This document shows positions 1 to 19,800 of a stretch of 64,000 nucleotides of DNA, piece by piece. The notes beneath the pieces are model-generated. The model was not told where the DNA came from. It worked only from the letters and a program-made list of their open reading frames with translations, and did not search any database. Position 1 is the first letter of the stretch. Every line of letters starts with the position of its first letter. The stretch lies in IMG/VR virus record IMGVR_UViG_3300020498_000003. The stretch is one strand, 5' to 3'. This DNA is from a virus. Lineage: Duplodnaviria > Heunggongvirae > Uroviricota > Caudoviricetes. Position numbers and translations under genes: made by a program.

Positions 1-3000
1 ATTGCCTTTTGGAATAGAACATCAATCGCTGATTTGATATCTGCACATCCACCACCATATGTTCCATCATCTAATATAATTGTTAGATCCTTATATTTTG
101 ATGTTGTTATTCCATATAGTGAAGCATATTCTGTAGTTCCAGTAACAATCCAATTGTTAACTGCATATTGGCAAAGTTCATTTGCCTTTTCCATTGCAAC
201 TACAGTAGGTAGAAGTTCATTCTTGATATACTCGATGTTATCATCGGATCCAACATAGAACTTCATTGCATTGATAGTATTAACATCTCCTCCAGATACT
301 AGATCTGAAATAATAGATGGTAAAATATACTGTACCAGATCTCTCTTACATGTTGCAGAAGAACCACCAGGATAGTTAAATGCCTTATACTGAACTCCAT
401 TTAGGGTATAAGTAAATTGACTATCAATATGAGCGATAGTCTCATCAGCAATGAAGTTTCTATTGAACCAGATTAGATCACCAGCATCTCTATAAACATT
501 TCCTGTAGGTGCAATCGTGTCATTAATGGAATTCCATAATGTGTCAATCTGAGCACGAACATCAGCACAGTCTCCAAGATCAATTGTGATATCAACTGGA
601 GGAATTGGGAATCTTTCAGTGTATTCTGGAGTTTCACTCAATTGACCAATTACTGCTTGCTGACAAAGTTCATTCATTTGAGTGTGGGTATAAACACTCT
701 GGAGGACTTGTCTCTCAATAAATCTTAGACCACCATTACTATCAAGATAGAATCTTGCAGCAGTGATTGACTCATAGTTTCCACCATTTTCAATATCAGA
801 AATTACAGCTTGTAGTAGTAGTGATAAATCTAATTTACATCTATTTGTTCCTTCGGTAGATGATGCGCTATCTCCAGGTATAACTAGATCTGGATAACGA
901 TTTTTTAGTCTACCTGCTGCCTCATCGATAATATAAGCAGAATTTAGTCTTAGTAGATTTGCAGCATCTCTAAATCTGTGTTGAGCATCAGAGTAGATTT
1001 GATCAGTAGTAATAATTTTATCAGAAGTATCAATTTGCTTGACAACAAATGGAATAGCGAAATATGTCGATACTTTTGCTGTTATTGAGTTATAAGAAAT
1101 ATTCTCTCCGACTATAAAGTTTCCAGTCTTATCTCCAACATAAATTGTTTTTAATGCATAATTGACACCAATAATGTCTGCTGACACTCCACTAATTGAT
1201 CCAAGTATAGTATTTCCTATTTGGAAATTACCTCCACTCAAATCATAATATGTTAGTTTTCTAACCTCAATAGACTCATCTTCACTAAAATCGTCAGTTT
1301 CATTTCTATATTCTACTTTAATATTTTGTACAAATTCTCCTTGTAGTAACTCTGCAGTTGGATTTGTGTAATTTAACAGTGTATTCTGAATTTCCTCAAA
1401 GTCCACAAATGTACTTTCTACCTTGATATCAGAATCATCAATATCAACTACTTCAGCAACACTTCTACTAATATCATCAACAATAGTATTTGGATTTGAT
1501 GGATTTACGATTCTGTTGAATAGTAAACCATAGAATCTACTTGGGTCACTGATGGATACTGAAGATACTGGATCAATCTTAATACTGGTTAAGATCTTAT
1601 GGTTCGCTGTTGAAGTTTGACCAATAATGATCTCATTTGCTACAAAAGTTCCAGAAATTGAACTTAGAATGAGTCTCTTGATTTGTGGATTCCAAAATAC
1701 AACTTCTCCAACTGCAGATGATGTTGATCCAACAACTTCTTCTCCGATTTGGAAATCACCAACGAATGAGTAATCTGAATTGATTACGATGTATACATTA
1801 GGATCTGTGTATGGAGCTAGTGATATAACTTTGGCAACAATTCCAGTTTGTGCTGAAATTATAAAGTCATCAATATCAATGTTTAGTAGTCCAGAAGGAG
1901 AATCATAAGTACCAGAAGTTTTGCTAATGACAATTTTATTTGTTATTACATTTGACTGTGGTTCTAAATTAATTTCTTCTACTACTGCAGTTTGCTTACT
2001 TAAGTTAGTAAGTTTTTCTTGGAATCTGTATATATTGCTGTTAATAATAGATTCAACAGAGACTATGTTTGCATTTAATCCAGTTGCAGGTGATATTACA
2101 GTTTCTGTATTTAAGAAGGTTCCCTGAATATTGAATACTGTTAGTGTGGTTGATGTTGAAGAAACAACCGTCGCTGTTGCATTAGATACAAGACCTCTAA
2201 TAGTATTTCCAAGTTCTGGGATAATGCCACTAATATTATTAATTGTTATTAATTTTGTTTCCTCAAACTGAAGTTCAACCTCTGCATAACTAATTTTGGT
2301 TGGTGCAGGAGGTGGCTCACTGAAGATGATATTTCCTTGCTGAACATTAAATGAACTTCCAGGTGCCTGAACAACTCCATTTATGGTAATCATAAATTGA
2401 CTTGTCTGTGCAACAACAATATTTCCATCAATTGTTAGTGGGAAAATTCTTCTTTCTCCATCAAACAGAGTGGAAATATCATCCAATTTCTGAACAACAG
2501 ATGTTAGAATTTCCTCAGAAGATGTTAGTCTCTTATTTCTGAACAGAACTTGAGTATTATCAAATTCACTGTAGATTGGTTCTGCTAGAGCAAAGTTATC
2601 TATGTGAGAAACTACAGAACTCTCAATTAGATTTACACTCTTGACTAACTCAAAGTCTGTTTTATTAGTTAATCCCTTGTTCTCTCCAGTAACTCCAATT
2701 TCACCAAAAATCTTAAATCCAGCTGGGTGTACATTATCAATTACGATATTTTTCCATTCTTCAATAGAGATAGGACTCTTAATATTATATGAGAACGCTT
2801 GGTATAGGTAAGAGTCTTGAACTCTTTGTACAATTTCACTTGGTTTGCCAACATCATCTAGGAATTTGCCAGTTGTTTTTGTAATAGAATCAACTTCTAG
2901 AATACCTCTAGCAATACTAATATCACCAATAGTACCACTTGCCTTAGAAATTGATCCAGTTACATTTTGACCAATCTCAAAATCACCACTATAGTCAACT

Positions 3001-6000
3001 AATTTGAGTAGTCTTGGACCAATTTGCCATCCATCATTATTTGATACTATTCCAATTGCAGTTGCATTATCGATGTTTAGACCCTGGAATACTGTTTCTC
3101 CAGATAGGAATCTTGCAGTTTCTAGTACAGATTCTGCCTTACCACCGAAGGAATCTGTTAGAATGATCTGTCTTCCAGTACCATTATTAACAAATGAGAT
3201 AAAGTTTCCAGTTTCTGCATCAACTGGTGTTAGTGCAATACGAAGCTGGTCATCTTCTAAACCAGATGTTGTACCAGAAATTGCATAGTAAGTCTGATTT
3301 GGATTGATGAAACCGAATGATGTTAGTGGGAAGTCAGCACCTTCTCCAAGGTCTCTGATATCAAACTTAACCTCAGCACCATTTGGAATTCCATGTGGGA
3401 ATGCAAACTGGAATAACTGTAGGTCAATGTTTACAACATATGTGAAACTAGACTTTAATTCGACAGTTGGTTCTGTTGTATATCCAGATCCAGGATTCTT
3501 AATTACAATAGCATTAATTCTACCATTTCTTAGGATTGCTTCTGCAATTGCACCAGTTCCTCCACCACCAGTAATTACAACTTCTGGAGGTGAAGTATAT
3601 CCAGTACCAGGATCAATCACCTTGATGCTGCTTAATACGCTAGTACTTGTTAACTGTAGATTAACTGGGAATGTGATTTCTGGTCTTAATGTATAGTCAT
3701 GAGTATAATCAAAACCAAAGTTGTTGTTCTTTAGTCTCTTAATTTTACCAACACTACTTCCCTTAACAAAAATAGAAGCACCAGTTCCTCTTGGTGGAAT
3801 TACTACTCGTAACTCAGCACCAGATCCAGTTAGTTGTGGACCAAGAATACCAGGAATTGCATCAATATCAATAAATGCTGTAGTATATCCTTTTCCTGGA
3901 TCAGTTACAATAACTTCAACAATTTGACCTGCAGGATCTGTACTTCCATCTACTGTAATTCTTACTTTTCCTCCAGCTCCATCTCCAGAAATTGGAACTC
4001 CAAAGTATTCCCCTGCTTCATATTCTGTTCCAGGATCTATAATTTCTACTCTTTCAATCTTTCTGGAAGATTCAATATCGGTAATGATAGGTAGTTTTTT
4101 ATAGAAACCACCACCATTAATGAGTCTAATAGAACCGATAGAACCTACTGCCTTTTTAGATGTGGTGGTATATGAAGATAATGCTGCAACTGCTGCCTTC
4201 TCTGGCTCAAATTTGATTGGGAAAATCAATTGATTTGCACCAGTTGTAATAGTTGCACCTCCAAGTTCCTTAACCTCAAATGTACCAATATAAGGACTTG
4301 GTAGAACATCAATGTAAGAATTATCTCCAACAGGACTTTCAGATCCAATTCTTGCTGGGTCTGCATAGTAACTGATATTTGATACATCGTCAGTTACCTT
4401 AAATGAAATGAATGGAGAGTTTCCTGGCTCATCTATACCTGGAGTTCCTTTTCTAACAATATTCTTGAAAGTATATTCAATTTTGTTTAGATTATCTCTG
4501 TAGAAAGATAAGAAGTGTCCTAGGTTTGATGGATCAGATGTATCAAAGGTATACTGCTGTCCATAAATTAATCTAATGATAGGATGCTTGACATAAACAC
4601 TAAACGATGTTCCAGATCCAATAACTGAAGATGGTGATGTCTTAATGCTGAAAATAAATTCTTTCTTATTAAGAACACTACTTACATAGTAAGTACCATC
4701 AGTATTGGAATATTCAGGTGATGATTGTAGAGAAATAATATCTCCAATATTCAAGTAATGTGATGTAGCAGATCTTACAAATAATTGATCAGTATTTGCT
4801 GATGTGTTAATTTGCAATACTTTCTTCAGATTTGTAGTTAATGTAATTTGAGTTACTGCGGTTAGTCCTGAAATAGTTAATTGCTTCTTATCAGAACTAA
4901 ATGAGAAGAATGAACTTCCAAGGATATATACAGATCCTCTAGAGTATGAAGATCCAGAAATAACTTCATCAACTCTTACTTGATAATCATCATCCGAATA
5001 ATCCTTAAAGATTGCAGATAATCCTACAGGAATATCAAAGACAAATGTTCCTGGAGTAGTAGCATCTTCATTAGCAAAGATGTATTTTGGTATCTCATTT
5101 ACAGCATTATCGGATGTCTCTAATGATCCGCTGCTATTGACAAAAGTACCATTAACAGAAGAAATTAGTATCTGATTATCTTGTGGAATTACATCAATAA
5201 TTTTTGCTGTTGCAATAGAGACATTAGATGAATTCTTTTGAGTAAGAGTCGTTCCTTTTGTAAAATTAAATTCCTGATTCAATGTTAGTCTTCTTACATT
5301 ATCAACTTTAGATGTTGCGAATGTTCTAAAGAAGAATTTATCATACGACTTAGCAGATAGAATTGGTTTTCTTCCTCCAGGGGAAGGAATAGTTGCAGTT
5401 CTAGTTGACCAAGTATCAAGAGTGGATACTATAGTTTGTGTATTTTGATCTAAGAACGATAATACATCAGTAAAGTCTAATACTTGGAATCCTTCATTAG
5501 CTAAGATATAATTAGAAATATTTGTTTCTAATGCAATATTATTAAGTGTATATAATGTTCTGGAAATTTCTAGATTTGCATTTGTGAATTGAATATCACC
5601 AAGTCTGACTGAATCTGAGTTTTTGTCTAGTTTAATAGAGTATGATTTTGCAGTTCCATGGTCATATGGAGTTAATGCTGCTGATGGAACAGATGATGGT
5701 CCAGAATATGTAATAGAGTAATTACTATATCTAATTTCATCAACTCTCATTGGCCAAGAAGAATATGATGTAGTAGATCCAAACTCAATTGTAGTTGGAT
5801 TCATATCTACACTTTCACTTATGGTTGCAATTTGCGTACCATTCCAAATTAATTTATATGTTGTAATTCCACTAGAGAACTCTTTCTTTAACGCAACATG
5901 GACCCATCCAGATGTTAAATCTGTAATATAAGTAGATGCAGCAGTAAGTTGTGAAATTGATGCTGCATCATTACTTAATCTAACTTTTCCGTATGTGGAT

Positions 6001-9000
6001 GGAGAACTAGTATCTGCAAATATAACAACTCTTACCCCATTAGTTCCATTGGTGCATCTAATTAATAGTGGAACTTTTGCAGTAGCTGCAGTATCCCACT
6101 TAATCCATTTTTCTAGAGTCCAGGATGAAGATGCAATACTTGTGGTTATTGACATCTTAGCACTTTGACTCATATTATAAGCATATGTTCCATACTTAGA
6201 GGTTGTTCCAATAGAAACAGTTCCTGAAGTTACAATATTAGAAACTCTACCCAATCTATCTACATAATCAGATCCATCGAATAAGAATTGAGTTCTATTT
6301 GGATAGTATCTTCCAGTTATAGTTGGATCTCCAGATACATCAGATACACATGACACTACATCGTATCCATATGAATAATCTGTTGTTTCAATCTTATTTG
6401 ATTTAATTACATTACCAAGATAGTTGATCTTTGAGATAATTACATATTTCGCATTATTTGCATCTGTTATAGAACATGCAATATTGATCTCTCCAAATAC
6501 ATCAATAGATGTTTTTGCTGTCTGTAATGTTTGTGCTTGAGATATAGTATATGAATTTGCCCACTTGATTTCACCATCAGATAGGAGTCTTAGAACAGAA
6601 ACTTTATTTTTGGTATTTGATGAGATTGTTCTTTGAGTTGCAGTAATATACAACTCATCATATTCATCAACAATAAGAGTTAGATCCTCGAAGTCACTAT
6701 CAAGTGCTCCATAGGTCTTTGCCCAATCTACGACAATTTTATTAGCAATAATATTTGCTTTTGATATGTAAATGCTTGTAGATGACTTACCTAAGAGATA
6801 TATTTCATTCTTTGAGTTTACTTTAACCTGGAAGAACTTATCTTCTGTTGAGGGGGAAGTGATCTTTCTTCTAGTTAATGTATCTCCATTAGATGCAATG
6901 TACATAACTATTGCATCATTAGTGTGATTCGTGTTTGTTGATGTATAACCACAAATTAGAATATTTCCATTGTAGATTGTGATGTCTGTAGCATAATCTC
7001 CTCTACTTGCACCACTAATACCACCATATTGCCTTTGCCAATTAATAGTGGATGAAGTTCCAGAAGAATTTTCTGTTAATTTGACAACAATGATATCTGG
7101 GTTAAATGAATTTGATAGTATTGGATTTGGTCTAGTAGTACCAATTATGTAAATTGAGTTGCCATCCTTAGCAATACCATTAAATACGCAATTCTTAGTT
7201 TCTTGAGTTGGTTGTACTGATGATAAAGTTCTTTGCCAGATCAAGAATCCTTCAGAGTTGAATTTAGCAACAAATCCATGAGTGTCTCCATTTGTGGTCT
7301 TAATAGATCCAACAATATAAGATTCTTTGGTATCCAGTACACTAGAATTTAATACTGTAATTTCTTGACCAGAAGTTAATGTAATTGTGTAGTAATTTGA
7401 TCTGGTTTGGATTTGTGGATGACTTATCCTAATTCTAGGAGTATCATCGAATGAATTGCCAGAATTGATGATCTTAATATCATTCAGTACACCAGTTGAT
7501 GTAATTGATGGAATAATCTCAGCATCTTTTCCGTTATCCGATTCAATATCAATAGCAATGGGAATATCACTTGAATATCCAATACCAGTTCTTGCAACCT
7601 CGACTTTTTCTAGACCAGGAATAGTGACCATTTTGATGGTCTTACTAACTGGTTCCATTTGAGGTTGTGTGATAACTTCTATTTTATCTCCAACTTCTAA
7701 ATTATGTTGAACTTCTGTAGTAATGACACCCTCAAAACTATCAAGTTGTTCATTATAACGATAGTTATAATTTGTGATTTCTTCACCAAGAATCTTAGAA
7801 ATTGCAGCAGAAGCACCATATCCATCTGTTCCAGTATTATCGAATACTAGAGTATCTCCAACCTGGTAGTTAACACCAGAGTTTTCAATTAGAAACTCTG
7901 AAATCTTTGCATCCTCAAACTTAGTTGTAGTCTCAACCTCGATATCGACTTTAGATGCAATGTCGATTGTGGGAAAATAATCAAAGATTTCTAACTTACT
8001 TTCTTCTAATAGTAAACTGAATGTCTCTAATTCCTGTTCAGATAGAACACCATCTTTGTTTAAGTCTTCAATCTCAAAGGATAGGAAGTCTCCACTTTCG
8101 AGTGTGAGGATATTTGTGATTTCATTAGATTGTCTTTCTACATCAATATCAACATTCTCGAATGGATCCCTGTATCTAACAATTCCAGTGGGAATATTAG
8201 ACTGAATTGCAAACTGATTTAGGTTCCAATTATCTGGTTGAGAGTAGAAACTTGGACCAACAATATATGGGAATGCTGGAGTTCCATCAGAATTAATAGT
8301 TACAAAGTATGCATAAACACCATCTGGGAATTCTGGAGTTTTAGTGAATCTTCCATTGTATTGATCAAGGAAGATAGACTCACTTCTGAAGACATATTCA
8401 TAGTCATCGATGAAAGTTCCAGCTGAAAAATTCAGTAGAGACGGACCATCAATTCTAACTGGGTTAATATTAAGAATTTCATCATAAACTAAGTTAGTCT
8501 TTAATCTATAACCACTTCGTACTTGAGAAATACCACTATTGATATTTGTTGGGTCTGTTAGTCCATATGGACCGTAGATTGGATTTCCATCAAATGCCCA
8601 TCCAATGATTGGTGAGTGAACAAGACCAGAATCTTTCTCAGCAATTTGACCATTCACCACTCTTAGGTTGTCACCTAAAACAAATCTTAACTGAGTTGGA
8701 TTTGAGATGTGTCCATACTCTCCACCAAATTGTTTATTATAACCCTCAAAGATTGAACCATTCGCATAATCAAAATTAGTTGTTCTGTTTAGGTTAAATG
8801 TCCACTCAAAGATTTCTGCATTAAATTCTGCTCCTTCACCAATTGACTCTAATCTAATTTGAGTAGTTCCTTGTCTATAACCAACACCTCTGTTAACAAT
8901 AGTAATGCCAGTTACCTTTCCTGCATCTGCACCCTCTATTGAAATTGTTGCTTTAGCGACAGCACCAAATCCTTCTCCAGTAATAATAACTTTAGGTGCA

Positions 9001-12000
9001 GTGGTATAACCAGAACCAGATGCAATTACAGCAACAGATGCTAATCTACCATTATTGACATATGCCTCTGCAGCAGCACCAGAACCACTACTTAGTGTAA
9101 TTGTGGGAGGAATGCTAAAATTATTTCCTGGATCTTCAATAATTACTCTATTGATAGGACCTCTCACAATTGCATTTGCCGTAGCTCCAATGCCACCTCC
9201 ACCGACAATATTTACTGTTGGTCTAGATGTGAATCCATTGCCAGGAGTGTTGACTAGAATTCTAGATACGGTTCCATTTGTTATAATAGCAGTAGCAGTT
9301 GCACCATCTCCACCACCTCCAGAAATTGATACTAGTGGTGATGATACATATCCAGATCCTCCAGAAAGAACCTCAATTTCGACTACAGAACCATTTACAA
9401 TGACTCTAGCATATGCTGGATCACCATTGCCTCTGATGGTCATATTTGGAGGTACTACGGCATCATAGTCCTTTCCCCCATCGACGATGTTGATGCTTGT
9501 TATAGGACCATATGGGAACTTCTGAGTGGACTTATAGTTCCATACACTAACACCATTAACGAATGTTCCTACTGGACCTGGAGTAGATTCTTGCTTTAGT
9601 GAAATAGTGGTTGGTACTTTGGGGAATCTATTTAATTTTCTCTGATTTCCTGGTAATAGTGCAGTTCCTAAGAAAGGTCCAATCTTATAATTGGGAATTC
9701 CACTAGCAGCAACATAAACATAGTTTTCATTGAAGAAACTATTCTGAATATTAGTTGCAAATTTATTGATTGTGTTATTAATTGAAGTAGAATCACTCTT
9801 TCCTTTGTTTAAGTCAATGGAAACAAGTATATTACCCTGAGGATTTAAGTTAGCTGGTTGTGGTAACTGATATGTAAACGATGTTCTAGTTGGAATCGAT
9901 GTTACTAAGAATGAACCATTATACACAATTGGGTTAGCACCATATACAGTAACTTGATCTCCAATTAGAAGACCATGTTGGTTTTGGCATACCACTGTTG
10001 CAGTTTGATTATTTTGACCACCGAAACTAATTTGCTGAACTTGTAATAACTTTTTAACATTATATAACCAACTATCTAATAGTTTATTCTCTTCTGTAGA
10101 ACCTAACTTGGAGATGTTTAATTTATCACCTTCCAAATAATATTTACCATCGTCTAGTAGGATTGTTTTATTTGCTTCGACAATACCCAATACAGATAAC
10201 ACAACTTCTTGTGTAGTTCCTTTGTTTACATAAACATAGAAATTTGATGAACAAATTGTTCCAGAATCCCATTCCTGTCGAATTCCAGATAGTTGTCTAG
10301 TACATTCAATAAACTGTGTTAAAGATTTCTCCTTATACCTGATAATCTCAGACCCAACAATAACTTCACCATTTCTTTCTGGCCAACCAATGGTTGAGTC
10401 TACCGTAACGATAACATCATCTAATAATAATTTTTCAGATAATTTAGTCTTGTATGGAATAGTGAATGAACCAATGATGGTTTCTTCTGCAAGAACTAGT
10501 TCATATACATCATAATCTGGTGTCTGAATTGCAATATAATTTTCTATCAGTGCTTGTGCAAATTTAACACTTGGATCAATTTCGTCTTCAAGTTGCTCTA
10601 GTAGACCATTTGTTAGATTGCGAGGATCCCCACTAACTAACTTTGCTCTCATAATGGTGTCTACAGACCATACAGATGCCGATGGCTTAATGATTTGGTC
10701 CTTTGGATATGAGATATCAATAGATACTCCATATAGAACATTGAAGAGATATTTCAATGCAAACTGAGTACCCTTAGATGCATAGAAATCTTTTGCAGTT
10801 CTTAGTACATTAGAGATGTTGACTCCACTTAATGAAATTTTTGGGAATCCTGGTAAATATTGATCAACTAGTCTGTCAATGACTTTAGCAAAAAATACAG
10901 AATCTAAACTCTTAACTAAACTACCACTGATGTGGGTTGCTACTATAGAATTTTTTTCAGATGCAAAAATAGCCTGGTTATCTTCAGTATAACCAATAAT
11001 TCCGCTAACTCCTCTGCTACAACCTACAAATTCTGACTTATTGTAATTTCTTCCATTGTTAATTACTTCAACACCAGTAATTTCTCCTTTACCAATCGTA
11101 GCAGATGCTTTGGCAGAGTCTGGTTCTGAAATATAAACTTTTGGTGGTTGGGAAGAAGAATACCCAGTTCCAAATTCAACGATACTGATATCCGTAATTT
11201 GCCCATTAAAGATTGTAGCAACAGCTTTTGCTCCAGATCCACCAATTGGATTTCCTAAATTGTCTTTTCTATCATCTACGATATACACACTAGGAATATT
11301 GGAATATCCACTTCCACCAGATAGCAATTCGATAGAAATAACTCTACCAAAACTATCAACCTGAACATCAAGTACCTGAGCACCAGTAGGTTGTACAACT
11401 TTAACTCTTGGTAAATTTGTTGATGAATATCCTGTTCCTGGATTGAGGATAGATACGGAAACTAATTCTCCACTAGCGTTCAGTACACCTTGTAGAACTG
11501 CCTGAATAGAATTGGGTTCTGATGGTGAATCGATATAGATTTGTGGAGGAGTATTGTATCCAACTCCAGAAGAAATTACATCAACAAAAGTAATTTGACC
11601 ATTATTTGGATTTACAGTTACATCACCAACCTCTGCTCCATATGGATTGATAAACTGAATCCTAGGAACAAAGTCATAACCACTACCACTATTTGTGATA
11701 GTAATCGACTCTACAGATCCTTCTGCATTTACTGTAGCAAATCCCTTTGGTAGAGTGCCATCAGATCTTTGTGGTGCTTGGAATGACAATAATGGGGGAT
11801 TAGTTTGTGAATATCCAGAACCACCCTGCAATAGAGTCGCTACCTTTACGCCATTGACTAAAGCTTTGGCAGTAGCATTCTCACCATTTCCTTTGGTTAA
11901 TGTTATTTTTGGAGTATTTTCAATTGTGTAATTTTGACCACCATCTTTGATGATTACAGAATCTAATTCGCCATTATCGTCAATGACAGAGTATGCTACA

Positions 12001-12890
12001 CATCCAGATCCAATAGATGGTGATGTGTAGTTAATAAACGCTACATACGGAACAATATTACTATTTTCCTTGAGGATTATAGTATCTTGATAGATAGAGA
12101 AATCTTGATAAGGAACTAATAGTTTTTTGTTCTGAATTGCAATTACAAGTATATCTGAAGTTGGAACTACTGGTGCTCCACTATTTCTTAATCTAAATTT
12201 ATTACTATCTAATTGTGTAGCAGACGCTACTATGATTTCAGTTGTCTCAAAACCTTTCAAGTATGTGATCGAAATCTCAGACGAATCATCTCCTTCACCT
12301 AAAGCATCGAATTCTCTAGGAGGAACGGTGAATATAATATTATCTTCTAAAATTTGATAATCTACATTAGGAACTTGTAAGTCTCCATATAGTTTAACAA
12401 TAAGGTGATTTGCACTTACTGGAAATACAGGTTCATTATTTGCAGTAAGATTGAATGATGTTCTTACCCCATTGAATTGTCTAAATGGGTTCGATAAGAT
12501 AATTTGCTTTCTCTGAAATTCGGAATATGAAATTGCAGGAGAAAATGTAATAGATGGAGATTTTCTAACTTCTCTGTAGTAGATTACCTCATCATCTATT
12601 AATATAGTACCATCGATATCCAAAAATCCATCTGTATTTTCTACCTGAATATTGGCAGTATCTAAGTTGACATCGAAAATAGTTTCAGTAGTACCATCAA
12701 GTTTTGTTAGATCATATGAATCGATGTTCATATAATCTGTTAGATTATTGATGATGTTTAATGGACCACCAATTTTTTCTTGTGATCTATAGTACCCTTC
12801 CATAAATGCCTGGAAGAGTGGATTAGATTCCTGAATAAATTCTGGAATCTGATTAGAAACTGAAAGTGAGACGGATTTATTGTCGTGCAT
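1..12890 (-). CDS. giant virion structural protein in the gp7 position (baseplate/fibre), N-terminus at ~12890, runs past window start (>=4296 aa, C-terminus missing)
   Basis: ATG at ~12890, 27 nt downstream of the gp6-like stop. By-hand translation of the minus frame is stop-free at every spot checked (starts at 12890, 11159, 119 down to 1). No competing minus ORF appears in the track. Contains dozens of tandem ~80-aa modules with the motif h-N/D-GG-SGY-(S/T)-x-PP-h-h. The plus-strand PPPP ORFs are its antisense. Confidence 0.7.
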   Translation of the reverse strand, partial: MHDNKSVSLSVSNQIPEFIQESNPLFQAFMEGYYRSQEKIGGPLNIINNLTDYMNIDSYDLTKLDGTTETIFDVNLDTANIQVENTDGFLDIDGTILIDDEVIYYREVRKSPSITFSPAISYSEFQRKQIILSNPFRQFNGVRTSFNLTANNEPVFPVSANHLIVKLYGDLQVPNVDYQILEDNIIFTVPPREFDALGEGDDSSEISITYLKGFETTEIIVASATQLDSNKFRLRNSGAPVVPTSDILVIAIQNKKLLVPYQDFSIYQDTIILKENSNIVPYVAFINYTSPSIGSGCVAYSVIDDNGELDSVIIKDGGQNYTIENTPKITLTKGNGENATAKALVNGVKVATLLQGGSGYSQTNPPLLSFQAPQRSDGTLPKGFATVNAEGSVESITITNSGSGYDFVPRIQFINPYGAEVGDVTVNPNNGQITFVDVISSGVGYNTPPQIYIDSPSEPNSIQAVLQGVLNASGELVSVSILNPGTGYSSTNLPRVKVVQPTGAQVLDVQVDSFGRVISIELLSGGSGYSNIPSVYIVDDRKDNLGNPIGGSGAKAVATIFNGQITDISIVEFGTGYSSSQPPKVYISEPDSAKASATIGKGEITGVEVINNGRNYNKSEFVGCSRGVSGIIGYTEDNQAIFASEKNSIVATHISGSLVKSLDSVFFAKVIDRLVDQYLPGFPKISLSGVNISNVLRTAKDFYASKGTQFALKYLFNVLYGVSIDISYPKDQIIKPSASVWSVDTIMRAKLVSGDPRNLTNGLLEQLEDEIDPSVKFAQALIENYIAIQTPDYDVYELVLAEETIIGSFTIPYKTKLSEKLLLDDVIVTVDSTIGWPERNGEVIVGSEIIRYKEKSLTQFIECTRQLSGIRQEWDSGTICSSNFYVYVNKGTTQEVVLSVLGIVEANKTILLDDGKYYLEGDKLNISKLGSTEENKLLDSWLYNVKKLLQVQQISFGGQNNQTATVVCQNQHGLLIGDQVTVYGANPIVYNGSFLVTSIPTRTSFTYQLPQPANLNPQGNILVSIDLNKGKSDSTSINNTINKFATNIQNSFFNENYVYVAASGIPNYKIGPFLGTALLPGNQRKLNRFPKVPTTISLKQESTPGPVGTFVNGVSVWNYKSTQKFPYGPITSINIVDGGKDYDAVVPPNMTIRGNGDPAYARVIVNGSVVEIEVLSGGSGYVSSPLVSISGGGGDGATATAIITNGTVSRILVNTPGNGFTSRPTVNIVGGGGIGATANAIVRGPINRVIIEDPGNNFSIPPTITLSSGSGAAAEAYVNNGRLASVAVIASGSGYTTAPKVIITGEGFGAVAKATISIEGADAGKVTGITIVNRGVGYRQGTTQIRLESIGEGAEFNAEIFEWTFNLNRTTNFDYANGSIFEGYNKQFGGEYGHISNPTQLRFVLGDNLRVVNGQIAEKDSGLVHSPIIGWAFDGNPIYGPYGLTDPTNINSGISQVRSGYRLKTNLVYDEILNINPVRIDGPSLLNFSAGTFIDDYEYVFRSESIFLDQYNGRFTKTPEFPDGVYAYFVTINSDGTPAFPYIVGPSFYSQPDNWNLNQFAIQSNIPTGIVRYRDPFENVDIDVERQSNEITNILTLESGDFLSFEIEDLNKDGVLSEQELETFSLLLEESKLEIFDYFPTIDIASKVDIEVETTTKFEDAKISEFLIENSGVNYQVGDTLVFDNTGTDGYGASAAISKILGEEITNYNYRYNEQLDSFEGVITTEVQHNLEVGDKIEVITQPQMEPVSKTIKMVTIPGLEKVEVARTGIGYSSDIPIAIDIESDNGKDAEIIPSITSTGVLNDIKIINSGNSFDDTPRIRISHPQIQTRSNYYTITLTSGQEITVLNSSVLDTKESYIVGSIKTTNGDTHGFVAKFNSEGFLIWQRTLSSVQPTQETKNCVFNGIAKDGNSIYIIGTTRPNPILSNSFNPDIIVVKLTENSSGTSSTINWQRQYGGISGASRGDYATDITIYNGNILICGYTSTNTNHTNDAIVMYIASNGDTLTRRKITSPSTEDKFFQVKVNSKNEIYLLGKSSTSIYISKANIIANKIVVDWAKTYGALDSDFEDLTLIVDEYDELYITATQRTISSNTKNKVSVLRLLSDGEIKWANSYTISQAQTLQTAKTSIDVFGEINIACSITDANNAKYVIISKINYLGNVIKSNKIETTDYSYGYDVVSCVSDVSGDPTITGRYYPNRTQFLFDGSDYVDRLGRVSNIVTSGTVSIGTTSKYGTYAYNMSQSAKMSITTSIASSSWTLEKWIKWDTAATAKVPLLIRCTNGTNGVRVVIFADTSSPSTYGKVRLSNDAASISQLTAASTYITDLTSGWVHVALKKEFSSGITTYKLIWNGTQIATISESVDMNPTTIEFGSTTSYSSWPMRVDEIRYSNYSITYSGPSSVPSAALTPYDHGTAKSYSIKLDKNSDSVRLGDIQFTNANLEISRTLYTLNNIALETNISNYILANEGFQVLDFTDVLSFLDQNTQTIVSTLDTWSTRTATIPSPGGRKPILSAKSYDKFFFRTFATSKVDNVRRLTLNQEFNFTKGTTLTQKNSSNVSIATAKIIDVIPQDNQILISSVNGTFVNSSGSLETSDNAVNEIPKYIFANEDATTPGTFVFDIPVGLSAIFKDYSDDDYQVRVDEVISGSSYSRGSVYILGSSFFSFSSDKKQLTISGLTAVTQITLTTNLKKVLQINTSANTDQLFVRSATSHYLNIGDIISLQSSPEYSNTDGTYYVSSVLNKKEFIFSIKTSPSSVIGSGTSFSVYVKHPIIRLIYGQQYTFDTSDPSNLGHFLSFYRDNLNKIEYTFKNIVRKGTPGIDEPGNSPFISFKVTDDVSNISYYADPARIGSESPVGDNSYIDVLPSPYIGTFEVKELGGATITTGANQLIFPIKFEPEKAAVAALSSYTTTSKKAVGSIGSIRLINGGGFYKKLPIITDIESSRKIERVEIIDPGTEYEAGEYFGVPISGDGAGGKVRITVDGSTDPAGQIVEVIVTDPGKGYTTAFIDIDAIPGILGPQLTGSGAELRVVIPPRGTGASIFVKGSSVGKIKRLKNNNFGFDYTHDYTLRPEITFPVNLQLTSTSVLSSIKVIDPGTGYTSPPEVVITGGGGTGAIAEAILRNGRINAIVIKNPGSGYTTEPTVELKSSFTYVVNIDLQLFQFAFPHGIPNGAEVKFDIRDLGEGADFPLTSFGFINPNQTYYAISGTTSGLEDDQLRIALTPVDAETGNFISFVNNGTGRQIILTDSFGGKAESVLETARFLSGETVFQGLNIDNATAIGIVSNNDGWQIGPRLLKLVDYSGDFEIGQNVTGSISKASGTIGDISIARGILEVDSITKTTGKFLDDVGKPSEIVQRVQDSYLYQAFSYNIKSPISIEEWKNIVIDNVHPAGFKIFGEIGVTGENKGLTNKTDFELVKSVNLIESSVVSHIDNFALAEPIYSEFDNTQVLFRNKRLTSSEEILTSVVQKLDDISTLFDGERRIFPLTIDGNIVVAQTSQFMITINGVVQAPGSSFNVQQGNIIFSEPPPAPTKISYAEVELQFEETKLITINNISGIIPELGNTIRGLVSNATATVVSSTSTTLTVFNIQGTFLNTETVISPATGLNANIVSVESIINSNIYRFQEKLTNLSKQTAVVEEINLEPQSNVITNKIVISKTSGTYDSPSGLLNIDIDDFIISAQTGIVAKVISLAPYTDPNVYIVINSDYSFVGDFQIGEEVVGSTSSAVGEVVFWNPQIKRLILSSISGTFVANEIIIGQTSTANHKILTSIKIDPVSSVSISDPSRFYGLLFNRIVNPSNPNTIVDDISRSVAEVVDIDDSDIKVESTFVDFEEIQNTLLNYTNPTAELLQGEFVQNIKVEYRNETDDFSEDESIEVRKLTYYDLSGGNFQIGNTILGSISGVSADIIGVNYALKTIYVGDKTGNFIVGENISYNSITAKVSTYFAIPFVVKQIDTSDKIITTDQIYSDAQHRFRDAANLLRLNSAYIIDEAAGRLKNRYPDLVIPGDSASSTEGTNRCKLDLSLLLQAVISDIENGGNYESITAARFYLDSNGGLRFIERQVLQSVYTHTQMNELCQQAVIGQLSETPEYTERFPIPPVDITIDLGDCADVRAQIDTLWNSINDTIAPTGNVYRDAGDLIWFNRNFIADETIAHIDSQFTYTLNGVQYKAFNYPGGSSATCKRDLVQYILPSIISDLVSGGDVNTINAMKFYVGSDDNIEYIKNELLPTVVAMEKANELCQYAVNNWIVTGTTEYASLYGITTSKYKDLTIILDDGTYGGGCADIKSAIDVLFQKA

Positions 12891-15168: not shown

Positions 15169-15581
15169 TAATCTCCTGGTCTCTGTAGGATGAATGTGCT
15201 ATTGATAGTAATAGTGTCACCAACAATTCTATATTCGATATCTACTCTAACTTCAGAGGAATCTGAGTCTTCAGCACTTACAATACAATCTATTATCTCT
15301 ACCCTAGGCTCATAATTTCTGATAGTATTTATTATAGTTTCTTGGAGTTGAGCAGCAGAAAATCCATCTAGTGGCTCAAATAGTATTTCATATACTCTAG
15401 ATCCAACTTCAGGATCCATTAATTTTTCTCCAAATCGTGTTTGGAGTAAATTTTGCACAGATTGACTTACTGCCTGCTCATTTTTTTGCACCAGAAGATC
15501 CTTTGTTATTGGATTTTTCTTAAAACCAATATTCAGATCCTTAAATTCTCGAAGAAATCTCTGAAATCTATCTTCTGACAT
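15168..15581 (-). CDS. baseplate wedge protein gp25 (GPW/gp25 lysozyme-like family)
   Basis: 137 aa. Contains RNYEPRV, matching the T4 gp25 RNYEPRI motif, and FGE...P..G GPW-type motifs. A TATAAATA late-promoter octamer lies ~27 nt upstream. Confidence 0.85.
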   Translation of the reverse strand: MSEDRFQRFLREFKDLNIGFKKNPITKDLLVQKNEQAVSQSVQNLLQTRFGEKLMDPEVGSRVYEILFEPLDGFSAAQLQETIINTIRNYEPRVEIIDCIVSAEDSDSSEVRVDIEYRIVGDTITINSTFILQRPGD

Positions 15582-15603
15582 TATAAACTCTTTTCTACAA
15601 GAG

Positions 15604-15611
15604 TATTTATA
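15604..15611 (-). promoter_or_regulatory. T4-type late promoter TATAAATA upstream of the gp25-like gene
   Basis: Minus-strand TATAAATA ~27 nt upstream of the ATG at 15581, followed by a GGAG-like RBS. Confidence 0.5.
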
Positions 15612-15614
15612 CGC

Positions 15615-16278: not shown

Positions 16279-16791
16279 CTATTTGCCAACTATGACATTG
16301 GTGGATCCTCTACCAATAACACTCAAGCAAGGTGGTCCTAGAGGGTCTCCTACTGCTGCTAGACGCTTTCCATTGACAAACACTGTAGTTGTAGTTGCCT
16401 TTACAATTCTATCATGCCCTCTACCGAATAAATCTTCGGTTGTCAACCTACTACAATTACAATTGAATGTTTTTGGTTTACATTTAGATCCTATTGGAAC
16501 AATGACAATATTAGTAGTTGGAGATTTGTGATATTTTAACATATCTCCATCACATAATGGTGTAATTCCATTAATGAATACTGTTCTTGCCAATACCGTT
16601 GGATCTAATGGAGTTAGTTTTGTTGGCGGCCAAAGGCAACTAGCATTCTTTACACTAACTGGTTTTGTTGGTGTTGGTCCAGGAGGACATGCTGGTAAAG
16701 CATTACATGGATTCACATTATGAATATTTGCTGGAATGGCAACACCATGACCAGTACATGTTCCAGTTATAATAGCAGCTAATCCAGGCAT
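16279..16791 (-). CDS. PAAR-repeat baseplate spike-tip protein (gp5.4-like) with a Pro/Cys-rich insertion
   Basis: Motifs VFINGITPLCDGD, VFVNGKRLAAVGDPL and GSTNVIVG are typical of PAAR domains. 170 aa, so larger than minimal PAAR proteins. Confidence 0.75.
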   Translation of the reverse strand: MPGLAAIITGTCTGHGVAIPANIHNVNPCNALPACPPGPTPTKPVSVKNASCLWPPTKLTPLDPTVLARTVFINGITPLCDGDMLKYHKSPTTNIVIVPIGSKCKPKTFNCNCSRLTTEDLFGRGHDRIVKATTTTVFVNGKRLAAVGDPLGPPCLSVIGRGSTNVIVGK

Positions 16792-16803: not shown

Positions 16804-19800
16804 TTATACATTAGTTATTGATGTATCTGATAATTGATCTGGAACTTCATTGTCTTCATCGATCGAAACATTAGATTCATTAAACTTAATGTCCTCTCCA
16901 AGATCTCCATAATTCCTATTACAGAAATAGTCATATGGATTACCATACTTATTTACTGCATCAACAAATGTTTTTGTCTCTTGTGTTAAATCATGAAGTA
17001 TCTGAAGATTTCCACTAATTTCCCAACTACGAATATTCTCTACAATCACATCGTCATTAGCACCATATATGGTTCTTCCCCATAAGTATGACTTTGTGTA
17101 TGGTGTATAACCTAGGAATGAACCAAAGATAGATGATAGTGGATAATACACATCACAAAATGCATCTGCTATATTAGCACCAGGATCTTTTGATTGTATT
17201 TGAGTCAATCTAGCAGCATAGGTTGGATTGTCTAGTAGACACTTTGTACATTTTCCTATGTCTGGATTAGTAGGATTTGGATTAATTCTCACACCTAGTC
17301 TAACATTAATCCATGTAAACTCCCTTGGATCAGGACAGAAGTTTTGGATTAGATATTTAATTTTATTAGTTGAACAAGGTAATTTATAAAATCCTCCTTT
17401 AACTGTTCGTATTGTAGTTGCATCTAAGTCAAATTTTCTCTCCTGTGGAGTCTTAGGATATGGTATTTTATCAATTGCAGTTCTATATTCAGAATTAATT
17501 TGATTTAATATATTTTGGTCAAATCCTCTATTCAATGAAGTTCTAGATTTATTAGCAACTTCTTGTGGACTCTCCCTACTAATTACGGAATTTGCCAGGA
17601 TGTCTGTTTGTGCTATTATATTTGCAGAATTGTCAAATGTGATATTATTAGAGGTATCATCATCTTGTGGTAAATTCCTTTCTACAGGAGTTGCCAAAAA
17701 TTCTCTAAATTGAGTTGAGTAATGATCAAGATACCCATCTTTACCTAACTGCGATGTTGATGCTTTTGCAGATGCAGTTCTTTCCAATCTATCTAAATCT
17801 GAAATTTTTGTTAAAATATCAGATGAAGTTCCAACTGGCAAATTAGTAGGAACAGAAGTTGTATCTAGATTTACTGATACGCTAGTATTTGCTAGTTTTC
17901 TTTGATCTTCTGTCAATACGCTATTGATGTCGGTACTTACATTCAGCTGACCAACATTATTTGTTGTTGCAGTTTTTCTTAGTAGTGTTGCAGCATCAGT
18001 CTTTGCATTTTTTTGTTCTTCATCATATTGAATCTGTACATCTTGTGTAAATTTATATTCTTTTCTATTTGTAGTATTGAATTGATCAGACCACTTTGGA
18101 TCCATGAAATTTTCTGGATACTCGTATCTGATTTTCTGTCTAGACAATTCCATATCAATAATATCTGGAATTGTTTCTGATATTACAACTTCATCATAAT
18201 TAATTTGCTGATCACTATTATATTGATTAAGATTGAAATTCTTAAATGCTGGTGATTTTGATAATAGTATTTGATTGTCTGGTTCACTCTTTACTGTAGT
18301 TGATGCTTCTTGTGCAATAATTTTTTTCTTTCTTACAATATAAGGAACAGAAATTTTTGGTGGGTTTTCTACAGAGTATCCACTACCACCATCTTTAACA
18401 ATAACATTGATTAATCTTCCATTTGATATTACTGGTTGAACTTCTGCTCTTCTTCCAGAACCAGTACATCTCTTTATAGCATCAACAACATCAGCACCTT
18501 GCAAAATCAATTGGTTGTATAATGTATGATTAAATTCAGTTGGGGGAGGATCAACTACTAATCTTACTTGTTCTATATTTCTATTTGATAGACCATACCC
18601 TTTCTTTAGGATCTGAGCACCAACAATTCTTCCATTATTGACTATACCCATCACTTGAGGTTTTATTAAGTCTGGCTCAAATGGAACACCCTCAGATGTA
18701 AATGCAGTACCGTATTGTATTTCTTTTTTTGTAAACTCATACTTACCAAAAAGAGCTGCCCTATCCTTGATACCAAACCCAGCAATGACTTTAATCTGTT
18801 GACCACCACTTGTGGTGTACATGGTATCTTTAACAAAGTCATTAGAACCTTGACTAATCTTTGCGTATCTAACATTAAACTCATCGTCTAATGTGCTAAT
18901 TCTATCGATTGTCCATCCATGTACAGTATCTCCAGGTTCAAGAGATGTGTTTTGTAGATCTACTACAACTTGTCTATCTGTGGTTTCTGCTATCATCAGA
19001 GAGATACCAATCCTTTCACTCTTTGGTGCATCTTCTGATGGGTAGTACAAATAGAATACTTCCTGATCTCCCCACAAACTTTGATCCTCATCATAACGAG
19101 AAGTATCGGTACTTCCATAACCAGAACCAAAACTTAAAATTTTGTGAATTCTCCATGCAGTGTTGTAGGATTCTGTATCTGCATTCCAAATAGATTGTAT
19201 CTTCATTCTTAATTTTAATCCACCTGGAAAACTGTAATCCTGATAGACAATTGCATCTCTAACTTTCCATACAGCATCCCCTTGTGGAGACAGATAAGTT
19301 ATACCTTCTGCTCCATCCCAAGCAGATTTATATGGAGTATCGTTTAATGACTTACCTCTATAGACATCACCAACATTAATTCCAGTCTGAGCATCTCTTG
19401 TTGACCATACAATTTGTGAATTCTTTGTTAATGTTATTGCCCACCCTGCTGGATTAGCTTCCCAAGATCCTCCAGGATTATTTGCCACATCAACAAAAAT
19501 ATCCACTGATTGGTTTTGAGTAATAGTAAATGTACTAGTATACTTAGTACTACCAGTAGTTAATCCACCAGTATGTGTATTTGTATTATGAATCAATACC
19601 CCAGTACTAGTATTATAAACTTTTACACTTCCCGAATCATCAACACCAAACTCAATTGTGTATGTGCCACTTGTAAGAGAAATTGAACTATGAATGATTT
19701 CTAGTGGTCTTCCTGATAAGTTGTTTTGTGTATCATTACACCACACAGCATATTGATTGCCCCAAGTAGTCCACCCACTAGGACGAGACACTGCATAGAC

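What the first reader, a model, noticed from the sequence alone, without database searches (positions are those of the whole stretch)
1..12890. An ORF of more than 4,296 codons that the ORF track misses, starting right after the gp6-like gene
The minus frame that starts at ATG 12890 is stop-free at every point I checked down to position 1. That makes the protein at least 4.3k aa inside the window, with the C-terminus still to come. It sits in the gp7 position (gp25, gp6, then this ORF). It is built from many tandem ~80-aa modules carrying a conserved (K/I)-(D/N)-GG-SGY-(S/T)-x-(N/T)-PP-(K/L)-h-h signature, occasionally separated by poly-Gly linkers (ITGGGGTGA, SISGGGG). The 1568-aa protein upstream of the PAAR gene carries one copy of the same module (VKDGGSGYSVENPPKISV). 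A baseplate or fibre protein this large and this repetitive is unusual. The repeat may be a carbohydrate-binding or Ig-like module family.
Basis: partly seen in the sequence, partly recalled or inferred. Interest (0 to 1): 0.75.

Follow-up and report, generated by a model that had tools for sequence, protein, structure and literature searches.

The report
Giant cyanophage gp7 with phycobiliprotein-like modules
The open reading frame is real but ordinary, being the first 4,296 codons of the giant gp7 baseplate protein carried by all four T4-like cyanophage reference genomes checked, yet its far end holds two domains, not described in the literature I could search, with the fold and pigment-attachment motif of cyanobacterial light-harvesting phycobiliproteins, which may bear on why some cyanophages attach to cells only in the light.

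Summary
The ORF is confirmed: ATG at 12890, 4,296 sense codons, no stop, running off the window. The ORF list omits ORFs that touch an end, which explains the miss. It is the gp7-type baseplate wedge gene of a T4-like cyanomyovirus, sitting after gp25 and gp6. It is 61% identical and collinear with the 5,422- and 5,512-aa genes of phages S-CREM1 and S-H38, so about 1,200 aa lie beyond the window. Giant gp7 genes (4,446-7,312 aa) have been annotated in cyanophages since 2005, so the size is not unusual.

The repeat is real but differs from the description. The unit is about 40 aa, not 80. There are 17 firm copies covering 16% of the protein. Each unit is predicted as a three-stranded beta element with no match to Ig-like or any solved fold.

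The parts
1..12890 (-). 5' about 78% of a giant gp7-type baseplate wedge gene (4,296 codons, start ATG 12890-12888, C-terminus beyond the window edge)
   Evidence: No stops. 61% aa identity, collinear with S-H38 residues 1-4310 of 5,512. phrog_701 E=0.
12024..12890 (-). N-terminal region, aa 1-289. Its first about 110 aa are conserved even in the gp7 of P-HM1 and P-SSM2.
   Evidence: blastp against eight gp7 homologues.
11013..12023 (-). GSGY repeat array 1: eight units of about 40 aa (aa 290-626). This is an insertion relative to the gp7 of P-HM1 and P-SSM2.
   Evidence: HMM i-Evalues 1e-9 to 6e-15. Array absent from P-HM1 and P-SSM2 gp7. Conserved in 332 phage records.
9501..11012 (-). Conserved gp7 core, aa 627-1130, the best-conserved part of the protein
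   Evidence: 52-72% identity to close homologues, 33% to P-HM1, 26% to P-SSM2. Pfam PF23786 at aa 691-733.
10707..10793 (-). Motif shared with T4 gp7 (aa about 700-728, KDFYASKGTQFALKYLFNVLYGVSIDIS)
   Evidence: Profile A6 against PDB: T4 gp7 residues 732-760, E=2.6e-4, the only significant hit.
8844..9437 (-). GSGY repeat array 2: five units joined by poly-Gly linkers (aa 1152-1349). This segment was modelled.
   Evidence: AlphaFold pLDDT 81.9; each unit is a beta hairpin plus a third strand.
8289..8744 (-). YHYH domain (aa 1383-1534)
   Evidence: Pfam PF14240, E=5.4e-27.
7419..7532 (-). Single GSGY unit (aa 1787-1824)
   Evidence: HMM i-Evalue 2.7e-4.
5709..6143 (-). Possible concanavalin-A-like / laminin-G domain (aa 2250-2394); weak evidence
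   Evidence: Pfam PF13385, E=0.003, 18.2 bits, below its cut-off of 27.6.
3450..3992 (-). GSGY repeat array 3: three firm units (aa 2967-3011, 3068-3108, 3107-3147)
534..1100 (-). Phycobiliprotein-like module D1 (aa 3931-4119), motif C-K-L-D
12..584 (-). Phycobiliprotein-like module D2 (aa 4103-4293), motif C-K-R-D
   Evidence: Family HMM i-Evalue 3e-35. Aligned with D1 and nine homologous modules. No Pfam hit on its own.
18346..18459 (-). One GSGY unit inside the neighbouring 1,568-aa baseplate protein (ORF 16804-21510, aa 1018-1055)
Evidence: HMM i-Evalue 1.4e-7; this copy was not part of the seed.

Best explanation
SHOWN. The ORF is the first about 78% of the gp7-type baseplate wedge protein of a T4-like cyanomyovirus (Kyanoviridae). 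A conserved core (aa 1-110 plus 627-1130, carrying the motif shared with T4 gp7) follows gp25 and gp6. By analogy with T4, I infer that this core anchors the protein in the baseplate wedge. The remaining 3,000+ aa are a lineage-variable mosaic extension. It contains three arrays of about 40-aa, three-stranded beta 'GSGY' units joined by Gly-rich linkers, a YHYH domain, a possible ConA-like domain, and, at the distal end, tandem modules of about 155-190 aa. There are two of these modules in the window, and relatives have two or three more beyond it. The modules have the phycobiliprotein (globin-like) fold and keep the Cys-x-Arg-Asp motif that forms the central bilin-attachment site of phycobiliproteins.

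INFERRED.
(i) The extension projects from the baseplate periphery as a fibre or whisker involved in contact with the host surface. The GSGY arrays would act as beads-on-a-string spacers.
(ii) The phycobiliprotein-like modules most likely (about 45-50%) still bind a linear tetrapyrrole at the conserved Cys, loaded in the infected cell where bilins and lyases are present.
(iii) If so, they could make baseplate or fibre behaviour light-dependent. I put this at about 20% overall.
For: IDENTITY. No stops. Synteny gp25-gp6-ORF. Collinear 61% identity to annotated gp7 of S-H38 and S-CREM1. phrog_701 E=0. T4 gp7 motif E=2.6e-4. PF23786 above its cut-off.

GSGY UNITS. HMM copies. AlphaFold pLDDT 81.9. 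Units 27% identical on average and no DNA tandem repeat.

PHYCOBILIPROTEIN HOMOLOGY.
- PF00502 is the top hit in 7 of 9 isolated modules, and 2 exceed the cut-off.
- An 11-module profile gives 142 PDB hits at E<=1; the 60 listed are all phycobiliproteins, best 1.1e-5.
- An independent 70-module profile gives 114 hits at E<=1; 58 of the 60 listed are phycobiliproteins or the engineered phycobiliprotein smURFP, best 4.1e-5. Family C/R/D align to alpha-Cys84/Arg86/Asp87.
- Family member P0127 scores PF00502 E=7.7e-12.
- Foldseek top 50 are all phycobiliproteins.

FUNCTIONAL SITE. In 1,161 modules: C 96%, R 95%, D 99%, a second D 99%, Y 97%. 93% of modules have the full CxRD. No other column has more than 6% Cys, so this is not an intramodule disulfide. 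Cys makes up only 0.4% of the whole protein. Covalent bilin at alpha-Cys84 and beta-Cys82 is documented in PMC6614406.

DISTRIBUTION. 366 and 251 of 50,697 phage records, all cyanophages or unclassified marine viruses. Essentially absent from 185,579 cellular genomes.

PHENOTYPE CORRELATION. P-HM1 (2 modules, CARD and CIRD) and S-PM2 (5 modules with CxRD) show light-dependent adsorption. P-SSM2 and P-SSP7 have no module and adsorb in the dark (phenotypes from PMC6628666).
Against: - Baseplate location is inferred from synteny and a 29-aa motif, not shown here; similarity to T4 gp7 is otherwise undetectable.
- The module model has low confidence (pLDDT 60.5, 7-sequence alignment), and the Foldseek E-values are weak (5e-3 and above).
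- Sequence similarity to phycobiliproteins is concentrated in about 60-70 residues, and 7 of 8 small family members give no Pfam hit.
- In this window D1 has Leu in place of Arg (CKLD), and D2 fails Pfam alone.
- P-SSM4's module lacks the motif.
- Arrays of up to 35 modules look more like a structural rod than a sensor.
- P-SSM2 has pebS and ho1 but no module, so phage bilin genes are not explained by the modules alone.
- Three poly-module proteins sit on contigs binned with heterotrophs.
- The phenotype correlation has n=4 and is phylogenetically confounded. The S-PM2 phenotype is cited second-hand.
- No pigment on cyanophage particles has been reported in the literature I could search.
Confidence: 0.72

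Rival explanations
1. The phycobiliprotein-like modules are purely structural. An anciently captured phycobiliprotein fold would have been re-used as a stiff helical bead for building fibres, with no chromophore. The C/R/D/D/Y residues would be kept for folding or for contacts between modules.
For: Tandem arrays of up to 34-35 modules fill more than 95% of some proteins, as in rod-building repeats. The modules are annotated within tail fibres and baseplate proteins. Identity to true phycobiliproteins is only about 10-20%. Some modules lack the motif (ours D1 is CKLD; the P-SSM4 module has none). No pigmented virion is reported in the searched literature.
Against: Diverged structural repeats usually conserve hydrophobic core, Gly or paired Cys residues. 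Here the five best-conserved positions are an unpaired Cys, Arg, Asp, Asp and Tyr (95-99%), and three of them coincide with the phycobiliprotein chromophore site. A free Cys kept at 96% in a protein with 0.4% Cys overall is hard to explain structurally.
Confidence: 0.35
2. The modules bind some other ligand or receptor through the conserved pocket, for example a host surface molecule or a metal. They would serve as receptor-binding units unrelated to light.
For: They are located in distal parts of baseplate and fibre proteins. A polar site is conserved.
Against: Nothing positive points to another ligand. The closest structural relatives are bilin binders: phycobiliproteins, the ApcE bilin domain and photocobilins.
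Confidence: 0.15
3. One reading: the GSGY repeat is an approximately 80-aa Ig-like or carbohydrate-binding module, and it is the defining building block of the protein.
For: The repeat is real and beta-rich, and it recurs in other baseplate proteins. Ig-like and lectin domains are common on phage fibres (general knowledge).
Against: The period is about 40 aa and coverage is only 16%. The model shows three strands per unit, far fewer than an Ig fold. There is no Foldseek, PDB-sequence or Pfam match.
Confidence: 0.08
4. The long frame is an artefact: a pseudogene, an assembly chimera, or a compositional accident.
For: None beyond the fact that it is truncated by the window.
Against: P is about 1e-136 by chance. 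It is collinear at 61% aa identity with full-length annotated genes in two isolates and three metagenomic orthologues. No near-identical DNA repeats are present.
Confidence: 0.01

Closest known systems
Giant gp7 / 'baseplate wedge initiator' / 'virion structural protein' of T4-like cyanomyoviruses (phrog_701; e.g. S-H38 QPB07964, S-CREM1 SCREM1_163, P-SSM4 PSSM4_080, P-SSM2 PSSM2_111, P-HM1 PHM1_087)
   Same: Same position after gp25 and gp6. Collinear 61% identity with S-H38 and S-CREM1. Same N-terminal core, GSGY arrays, YHYH domain and C-terminal phycobiliprotein-like modules.
   Different: Only about 72% nucleotide identity over parts of the gene to any deposited phage, so this is a new phage lineage. 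Domain content varies between lineages: the gp7 of P-HM1 and P-SSM2 lacks GSGY array 1, and P-SSM2 lacks the phycobiliprotein-like modules altogether.
Bacteriophage T4 gp7 (1,032 aa; PDB 5HX2, 5IV5, 9F4A)
   Same: Gene order gp25-gp6-gp7. A 29-residue motif, DFYAxKG...LF.LLY, shared with T4 gp7 residues 732-760. Pfam Baseplate_wedge hit.
   Different: More than five times longer. No other detectable sequence similarity. T4 gp7 has no GSGY repeats, YHYH domain or phycobiliprotein-like domains.
Phycobiliproteins (Pfam PF00502: phycocyanin, allophycocyanin and phycoerythrin alpha and beta subunits)
   Different: Fused in tandem inside giant virion proteins instead of being free 17-20 kDa subunits. 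Only 10-20% identity. A shorter loop before the Cys. No evidence for alpha-beta pairing, for trimer or hexamer discs, or for any chromophore. Encoded by phages, not by cells.
ApcE (core-membrane linker) phycobiliprotein domain
   Different: ApcE has one such domain followed by linker (REP) domains and sits inside the phycobilisome. The phage proteins carry 2-35 tandem copies on a virion.

Membership tests
T4-type gp7 baseplate wedge protein | Gene lies immediately downstream of gp25 and gp6 in the baseplate wedge cluster | tested here: met
   gp25 at 15171-15614 (phrog_261/43), gp6 at 12916-15168 (PF21379), ORF start at 12890.
T4-type gp7 baseplate wedge protein | Detectable sequence homology to T4 gp7 | tested here: met
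   Profile of aa 627-1130 finds T4 gp7 (5hx2, 9f4a) at E=2.6e-4 over 29 residues as the only significant PDB hit. PF23786 scores 29.4 bits against a cut-off of 27. Homology is at motif level only.
T4-type gp7 baseplate wedge protein | Physical presence in the baseplate wedge of the virion | not testable with these tools
   Needs proteomics or cryo-EM. Homologues are annotated 'virion structural protein' in several records.
Cyanomyovirus giant gp7 (phrog_701) | Full-length profile match and collinear alignment with annotated members | tested here: met
   phrog_701 E=0, 5,258 bits, aa 4-3645. Residues 1-4296 align to S-H38 residues 1-4310 at 61% identity.
Cyanomyovirus giant gp7 (phrog_701) | Gene ends after about 5,400 aa and is followed by gp8 | not testable with these tools
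   The C-terminus lies outside the window. In S-H38, S-CREM1, P-SSM2 and P-HM1 the next gene is a wedge or gp8 gene.
Phycobiliprotein family (Pfam PF00502) | Score at or above Pfam's gathering threshold (22.2 bits) | tested here: inconclusive
   D1 alone scores 27.6 bits (met). Within the whole ORF the score is 22.1 bits (just under). D2 alone gives no hit. Among homologous modules, 2 of 9 are above threshold and 7 of 9 have PF00502 as top hit. Family member P0127 scores 45.9 bits.
Phycobiliprotein family (Pfam PF00502) | Globin-like phycobiliprotein fold | tested here: met
Phycobiliprotein family (Pfam PF00502) | Chromophore-site residues Cys84(82), Arg86(84) and Asp87(85) | tested here: met
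   Family-wide C 96%, R 95%, D 99%, aligned to alpha-84/86/87. In this window D2 is CKRD (complete) and D1 is CKLD (Arg replaced by Leu).
Phycobiliprotein family (Pfam PF00502) | Covalently bound bilin chromophore | not testable with these tools
   Requires spectroscopy or mass spectrometry of virions or recombinant modules.
Phycobiliprotein family (Pfam PF00502) | Free alpha and beta subunits that assemble into (alpha-beta)3 discs in a phycobilisome | tested here: not met
   The modules are fused head-to-tail inside virion proteins of 600-7,000 aa. They are therefore phycobiliprotein-like domains, not phycobiliproteins proper.
   Unit of about 40 aa with 3 strands. Foldseek best E=0.58, probability 0.15 or less. 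No PDB-sequence or Pfam match.

The most novel reading that the evidence does not exclude
Many T4-like cyanophages carry on their baseplate (gp7) and tail-fibre proteins tandem phycobiliprotein-derived modules that are loaded with a bilin in the infected cell. These modules would act as a virion-borne photoreceptor gating adsorption. That would give a molecular basis for the unexplained light-dependent adsorption of S-PM2 and P-HM1/P-HM2, and a possible second client for phage-encoded bilin genes (ho1, pebS, pcyA, cpeT).
Probability: 0.2. Interest if true: 0.92.

Novelty: new member of a known kind. Interest (0 to 1): 0.62.

Why it matters
As an ORF this is routine: another member of the giant gp7 family of cyanomyoviruses, from a lineage only about 72% identical at the DNA level to any sequenced isolate.

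What could matter is the domain content. About 1,400 representative virion proteins carry up to 35 tandem copies of a module that has the phycobiliprotein fold and keeps its Cys-x-Arg-Asp bilin site at 95-99%. Among phages with a named host the module is found only in cyanophages.

I found no mention of this in the searchable literature. [quoted passage not shown] The role of phage phycobilin-synthesis genes 'remains a mystery' (PMC3037559).

The modules give a concrete candidate that can be tested directly, by Zn-blot or mass spectrometry of virions and by Cys mutants. Even if no pigment is bound, re-use of a host light-harvesting fold as a fibre building block would be a striking case of domain capture.

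Tried and rejected
1. The word-indexed homologue search (search for homologous proteins) returned only 1 and 2 hits for the module, while exhaustive HMMER found 1,379. That index handles this family poorly, and I did not use the third search.
I rebuilt the alignment from window segments and sub-segments of retrieved proteins (A2, 7 rows), so the module model is shallow and only moderately confident.
3. The search for related loci with the 70-module alignment failed because there was no conserved stretch. It worked with a tighter 39-column core.
4. I looked for further phycobiliprotein-like modules in other window ORFs and found none.
5. I looked for bilin genes (cpeT, pebS, pcyA, ho1) in the rest of the window and found none among 75 ORFs, so this window cannot speak to co-occurrence.
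6. I considered an intramodule disulfide as the reason for the conserved Cys and rejected it, because no second Cys column exceeds 6%.
7. I considered the idea that phage bilin genes exist to serve the modules. It is weakened because P-SSM2 has pebS and ho1 but no module.
8. I tried to read Jia et al. 2010 for wavelength dependence; the paper is not held, and a review added nothing.
9. I checked whether the MAG contig L013 is a known phage. It has no DNA match, and its neighbouring gene is a phage tail-fibre gene, so its host remains unknown.
Full report
OBSERVATION.
Machine translation of the minus frame from ATG 12890 to base 3 gives 4,296 sense codons and no stop. In-frame stops lie just upstream of the ATG. 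With the window's composition (37.7% G+C, stop probability 0.070 per codon) the chance of such a frame is about 1e-136. The ORF list omits it only because ORFs that run off an end are not listed.

The genes upstream are gp25 (15171-15614; phrog_261 and phrog_43) and gp6 (12916-15168; Pfam Gp6-like_1st, E=6e-16), so the 'gp7 position' is correct. The quoted linkers and the copy in the 1,568-aa protein are all present.

WHAT THE GENE IS.
The window comes from a T4-like cyanomyovirus. The nearest deposited genomes are Synechococcus phages S-CREM1 and S-H38, only about 72% identical at the DNA level over parts of the gene. Both carry a syntenic gene of 5,422 and 5,512 aa, annotated 'baseplate wedge subunit' and 'baseplate wedge initiator'. 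Our 4,296 residues align collinearly with residues 1-4310 of the S-H38 protein at 61% identity, so about 1,200 residues lie beyond the window.

The protein matches phrog_701 ('virion structural protein', profile length 6,136) at E=0. Giant genes in this slot are standard in the family:
- P-SSM4 gp7: 7,312 aa
- P-SSM2 gp7: 5,195 aa
- P-HM1 gp7: 4,446 aa
P-SSM4's orf080 was already discussed among candidate fibre genes in 2005 (PMC1079782).

The best-conserved part is aa 627-1130 (52-72% identity in close homologues, 33% in P-HM1, 26% in P-SSM2), together with the first about 110 residues. A profile of aa 627-1130 finds T4 gp7 as its only significant relative among solved structures (E=2.6e-4). 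The match is a 29-residue motif, DFYAxKG...LF.LLY, at the place where Pfam's Baseplate_wedge model also hits. The gp7 label therefore holds at motif level. The size is not unusual for this group.

THE GSGY REPEAT.
Motif positions are spaced about 40 aa apart, not 80. An HMM of the unit finds 17 firm copies:
- eight at aa 290-626
- five at aa 1152-1349
- one at aa 1787-1824
- three at aa 2967-3147
A few weak copies are also found. Together the firm copies cover 689 residues, or 16% of the protein.

The same HMM independently finds one copy in the neighbouring 1,568-aa baseplate protein (i-Evalue 1.4e-7). The units are 11-47% identical to one another (mean 27%), and no tandem DNA repeat of matching period exists. 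They are therefore old duplications, not an artefact. Array 1 is missing from the gp7 of P-HM1 and P-SSM2, which makes it a lineage-specific insertion.

I modelled five units with AlphaFold, using orthologous and register-shifted rows. Confidence is good (pLDDT 81.9), and each unit is a beta hairpin plus a third strand, strung together by Gly-rich linkers (pTM 0.50). Foldseek against the PDB gives nothing (best E=0.58). A profile search of PDB sequences gives nothing significant, and Pfam has no model for the repeat. An Ig-like or known carbohydrate-binding fold is not supported. I read the arrays as spacer or rod elements; that is an inference.

Other domains in the ORF are a YHYH domain (aa 1383-1534, E=5e-27) and a weak ConA-like/laminin-G match (aa 2250-2394).

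THE UNEXPECTED PART: PHYCOBILIPROTEIN-LIKE MODULES.
The whole-protein Pfam scan gave a borderline 'Phycobilisome protein' hit at aa 3964-4029. A phmmer search of the 4,296-aa protein against all PDB sequences returned 26 hits. Every one is a phycobiliprotein aligned in register at this site. NCBIfam's allophycocyanin and phycocyanin models also hit there.

The relatives show that this region is a tandem array of modules of about 155-190 aa: five in S-CREM1, four in S-H38, and two inside our window at aa 3931-4119 and 4103-4293.

Sequence evidence:
- Scanned singly, 7 of 9 modules have PF00502 as their top Pfam hit. Two exceed the gathering score (27.6 and 25.0 against 22.2), and two align over most of the profile.
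- A profile of 11 modules finds 142 PDB sequences at E<=1. The 60 listed are all phycobiliproteins (best 1.1e-5).

Structural evidence:
- An AlphaFold model of module D1 is all-helical but only moderately confident (pLDDT 60.5, pTM 0.63, 7-row alignment).
- Foldseek's top 50 PDB matches are all phycobiliproteins, with weak E-values (5e-3 to 4e-2).

THE FAMILY.
An exhaustive HMMER search of 1.84 billion representative proteins finds 1,379 proteins with the module (942 at E<=1e-10). Many are giants of 2,000-7,000 aa with up to 35 tandem copies. In the 153 proteins retrieved there are 1,621 modules with a median period of 154 aa, and some proteins are more than 95% module.

Across 1,161 near-complete modules the most conserved positions are C (96%), R (95%) and D (99%) in a C-x-R-D motif. 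A second D (99%), a Y (97%) and a GGN turn follow. 93% of modules have the complete motif. No other column has more than 6% Cys, so the Cys is not half of an intramodule disulfide. Cys makes up only 0.4% of our protein.

A second, independent profile of 70 diverse modules again retrieves almost only phycobiliproteins from the PDB (best 4.1e-5). It aligns the consensus aKCkRDvGlivDavayDLlyGGn to alpha-phycocyanin [23 protein letters not shown]. This places the family's C, R and D on alpha-Cys84, Arg86 and Asp87. Cys84 (alpha) and Cys82 (beta) carry the covalently bound bilin (PMC6614406). That Arg86 binds a propionate and Asp87 the pyrrole nitrogens is my own knowledge of phycobiliprotein structures.

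The signal is uneven. Only 1 of 8 small family members reaches Pfam significance (P0127, E=7.7e-12). In our window D1 reads CKLD, while D2 reads CKRD.

DISTRIBUTION.
tblastn of our two modules against 50,697 phage genomes hits 366 records at 886 places. All are Synechococcus or Prochlorococcus phages, apart from one unclassified marine virus. The hits fall in gp7, 'tail fiber' and 'structural' genes. A consensus-type poly-module protein hits 251 records with the same host restriction.

A pattern scan of one genome from each of 185,579 bacterial and archaeal species finds only two loci. Both are on MAG or single-cell contigs and encode poly-module proteins next to phage tail-fibre genes. The module is therefore viral, not cellular.

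Caveat: those two contigs, and one cluster member, are binned with heterotrophs (Crocinitomicaceae, Gammaproteobacteria, Methylophagaceae). This may be mis-binning. It may also mean that the module is not strictly confined to cyanophages.

A SMALL TEST OF THE LIGHT IDEA.
Adsorption of some cyanomyoviruses needs light. P-HM1 and P-HM2 do not adsorb in the dark, whereas P-SSM2 and the podovirus P-SSP7 do. [quoted passage not shown]

I searched six-frame translations with the deep module HMM at full sensitivity:

| Phage | Modules found | Adsorption in the dark |
|---|---|---|
| P-HM1 gp7 | two strong modules (CARD, CIRD) | no |
| S-PM2 p088 | five (CRRD, CKRD, CRRD, CRRD, CARD) | no (light-dependent) |
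| P-SSM2, complete genome | none | yes |
| P-SSP7, bases 1-45,000 of 45,176 | none | yes |
| P-SSM4 gp7, fetched part | one degenerate module without the motif | not reported |

That is 4 of 4 consistent, but the sample is tiny and phylogenetically confounded, and the S-PM2 phenotype is quoted second-hand.

Against a simple link to phage pigment genes, P-SSM2 has pebS and ho1 yet no module. The role of those genes is described as 'a mystery' in PMC3037559. Our window contains no bilin gene.

LITERATURE.
Full-text searches for phycobiliprotein-like domains in phage or cyanophage structural proteins returned nothing relevant.

VERDICT.
The ORF and the repeat are real, but the period and extent of the repeat were misjudged. 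The gene is a new member of a known family.

The point of interest is the phycobiliprotein-fold modules with an intact bilin-site motif, which I could not find described in the searchable literature. My probability estimates are:
- homology to phycobiliproteins: about 0.85
- the modules still bind a tetrapyrrole: about 0.45-0.5
- the modules underlie light-dependent adsorption: about 0.2

Noticed in passing
window 16804-21510 (-) and 16279-16791 (-): The 1,568-aa protein matches phrog_719 'baseplate wedge subunit' (E=4e-82) but has no Pfam domain. It carries one GSGY unit (aa 1018-1055) and perhaps a second weak one (aa 957-985). The 170-aa ORF after it has only a sub-threshold PAAR match (21.4 bits against a cut-off of 27).
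   Followed up: partly
window 8289-8744 (-): A YHYH domain (PF14240, E=5e-27), a family of unknown function, is embedded in the gp7 extension. It is conserved in the close homologues.
   Followed up: no
window 26874-28415 (+) and 27099-28406 (-): Two long antiparallel ORFs (about 513 and about 435 aa) overlap almost completely. Only one is likely to be a gene. Helicase-family Pfam hits were seen somewhere in the window scan but were not mapped to a strand.
   Followed up: no
L005 2009-2710 and L008 17709-18410 (P-SSM2): P-SSM2 encodes pebS and heme oxygenase and has a 5,195-aa gp7, yet has no phycobiliprotein-like module anywhere in its 252-kb genome. This is a counter-example to the idea that phage bilin genes exist only to serve the modules.
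   Followed up: yes
L003 13122-28999 (P-SSM4 gp7, 7,312 aa): The fetched 5,292 aa of P-SSM4 gp7 contain a single module (aa about 4453-4604) that has lost the C-x-R-D motif. Its adsorption behaviour in the dark would be informative.
   Followed up: partly
L013 1372-6111 and L014 277-3156: Poly-module fibre proteins with intact CxRD motifs lie on contigs binned as Crocinitomicaceae (72.8-kb MAG contig) and Gammaproteobacteria (single-cell assembly). The neighbouring gene's best match is a Pelagibacter myophage tail fibre. The true host is unknown.
   Followed up: partly
P0004, P0005, P0006 (metagenomic proteins of 4,799-6,382 aa): These proteins consist almost entirely (87-97% in P0004 and P0006) of 30-35 tandem phycobiliprotein-like modules and sit on contigs up to 122 kb. 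Nothing is known about them.
   Followed up: partly
window 53754-57443 (-) and 57470-59299 (-): Two tail-fibre genes (phrog_529 at E=0; phrog_693 at E=3e-104) lie in the same window. Neither contains a phycobiliprotein-like module or a GSGY unit, so in this phage the modules found so far are confined to gp7.
   Followed up: partly
S-CREM1 and S-H38 gp7 (L001, L002), modules with 'VPGGN..C(L/K)(R/D)D': Some modules keep a P-G-G-N motif a few residues before the Cys, as beta-phycobiliproteins do (PGGNAY...C82). In beta subunits, from my own knowledge, that Asn is the methylated Asn72. The loop between the motif and the Cys is about 7 residues shorter in the phage modules.
   Followed up: no
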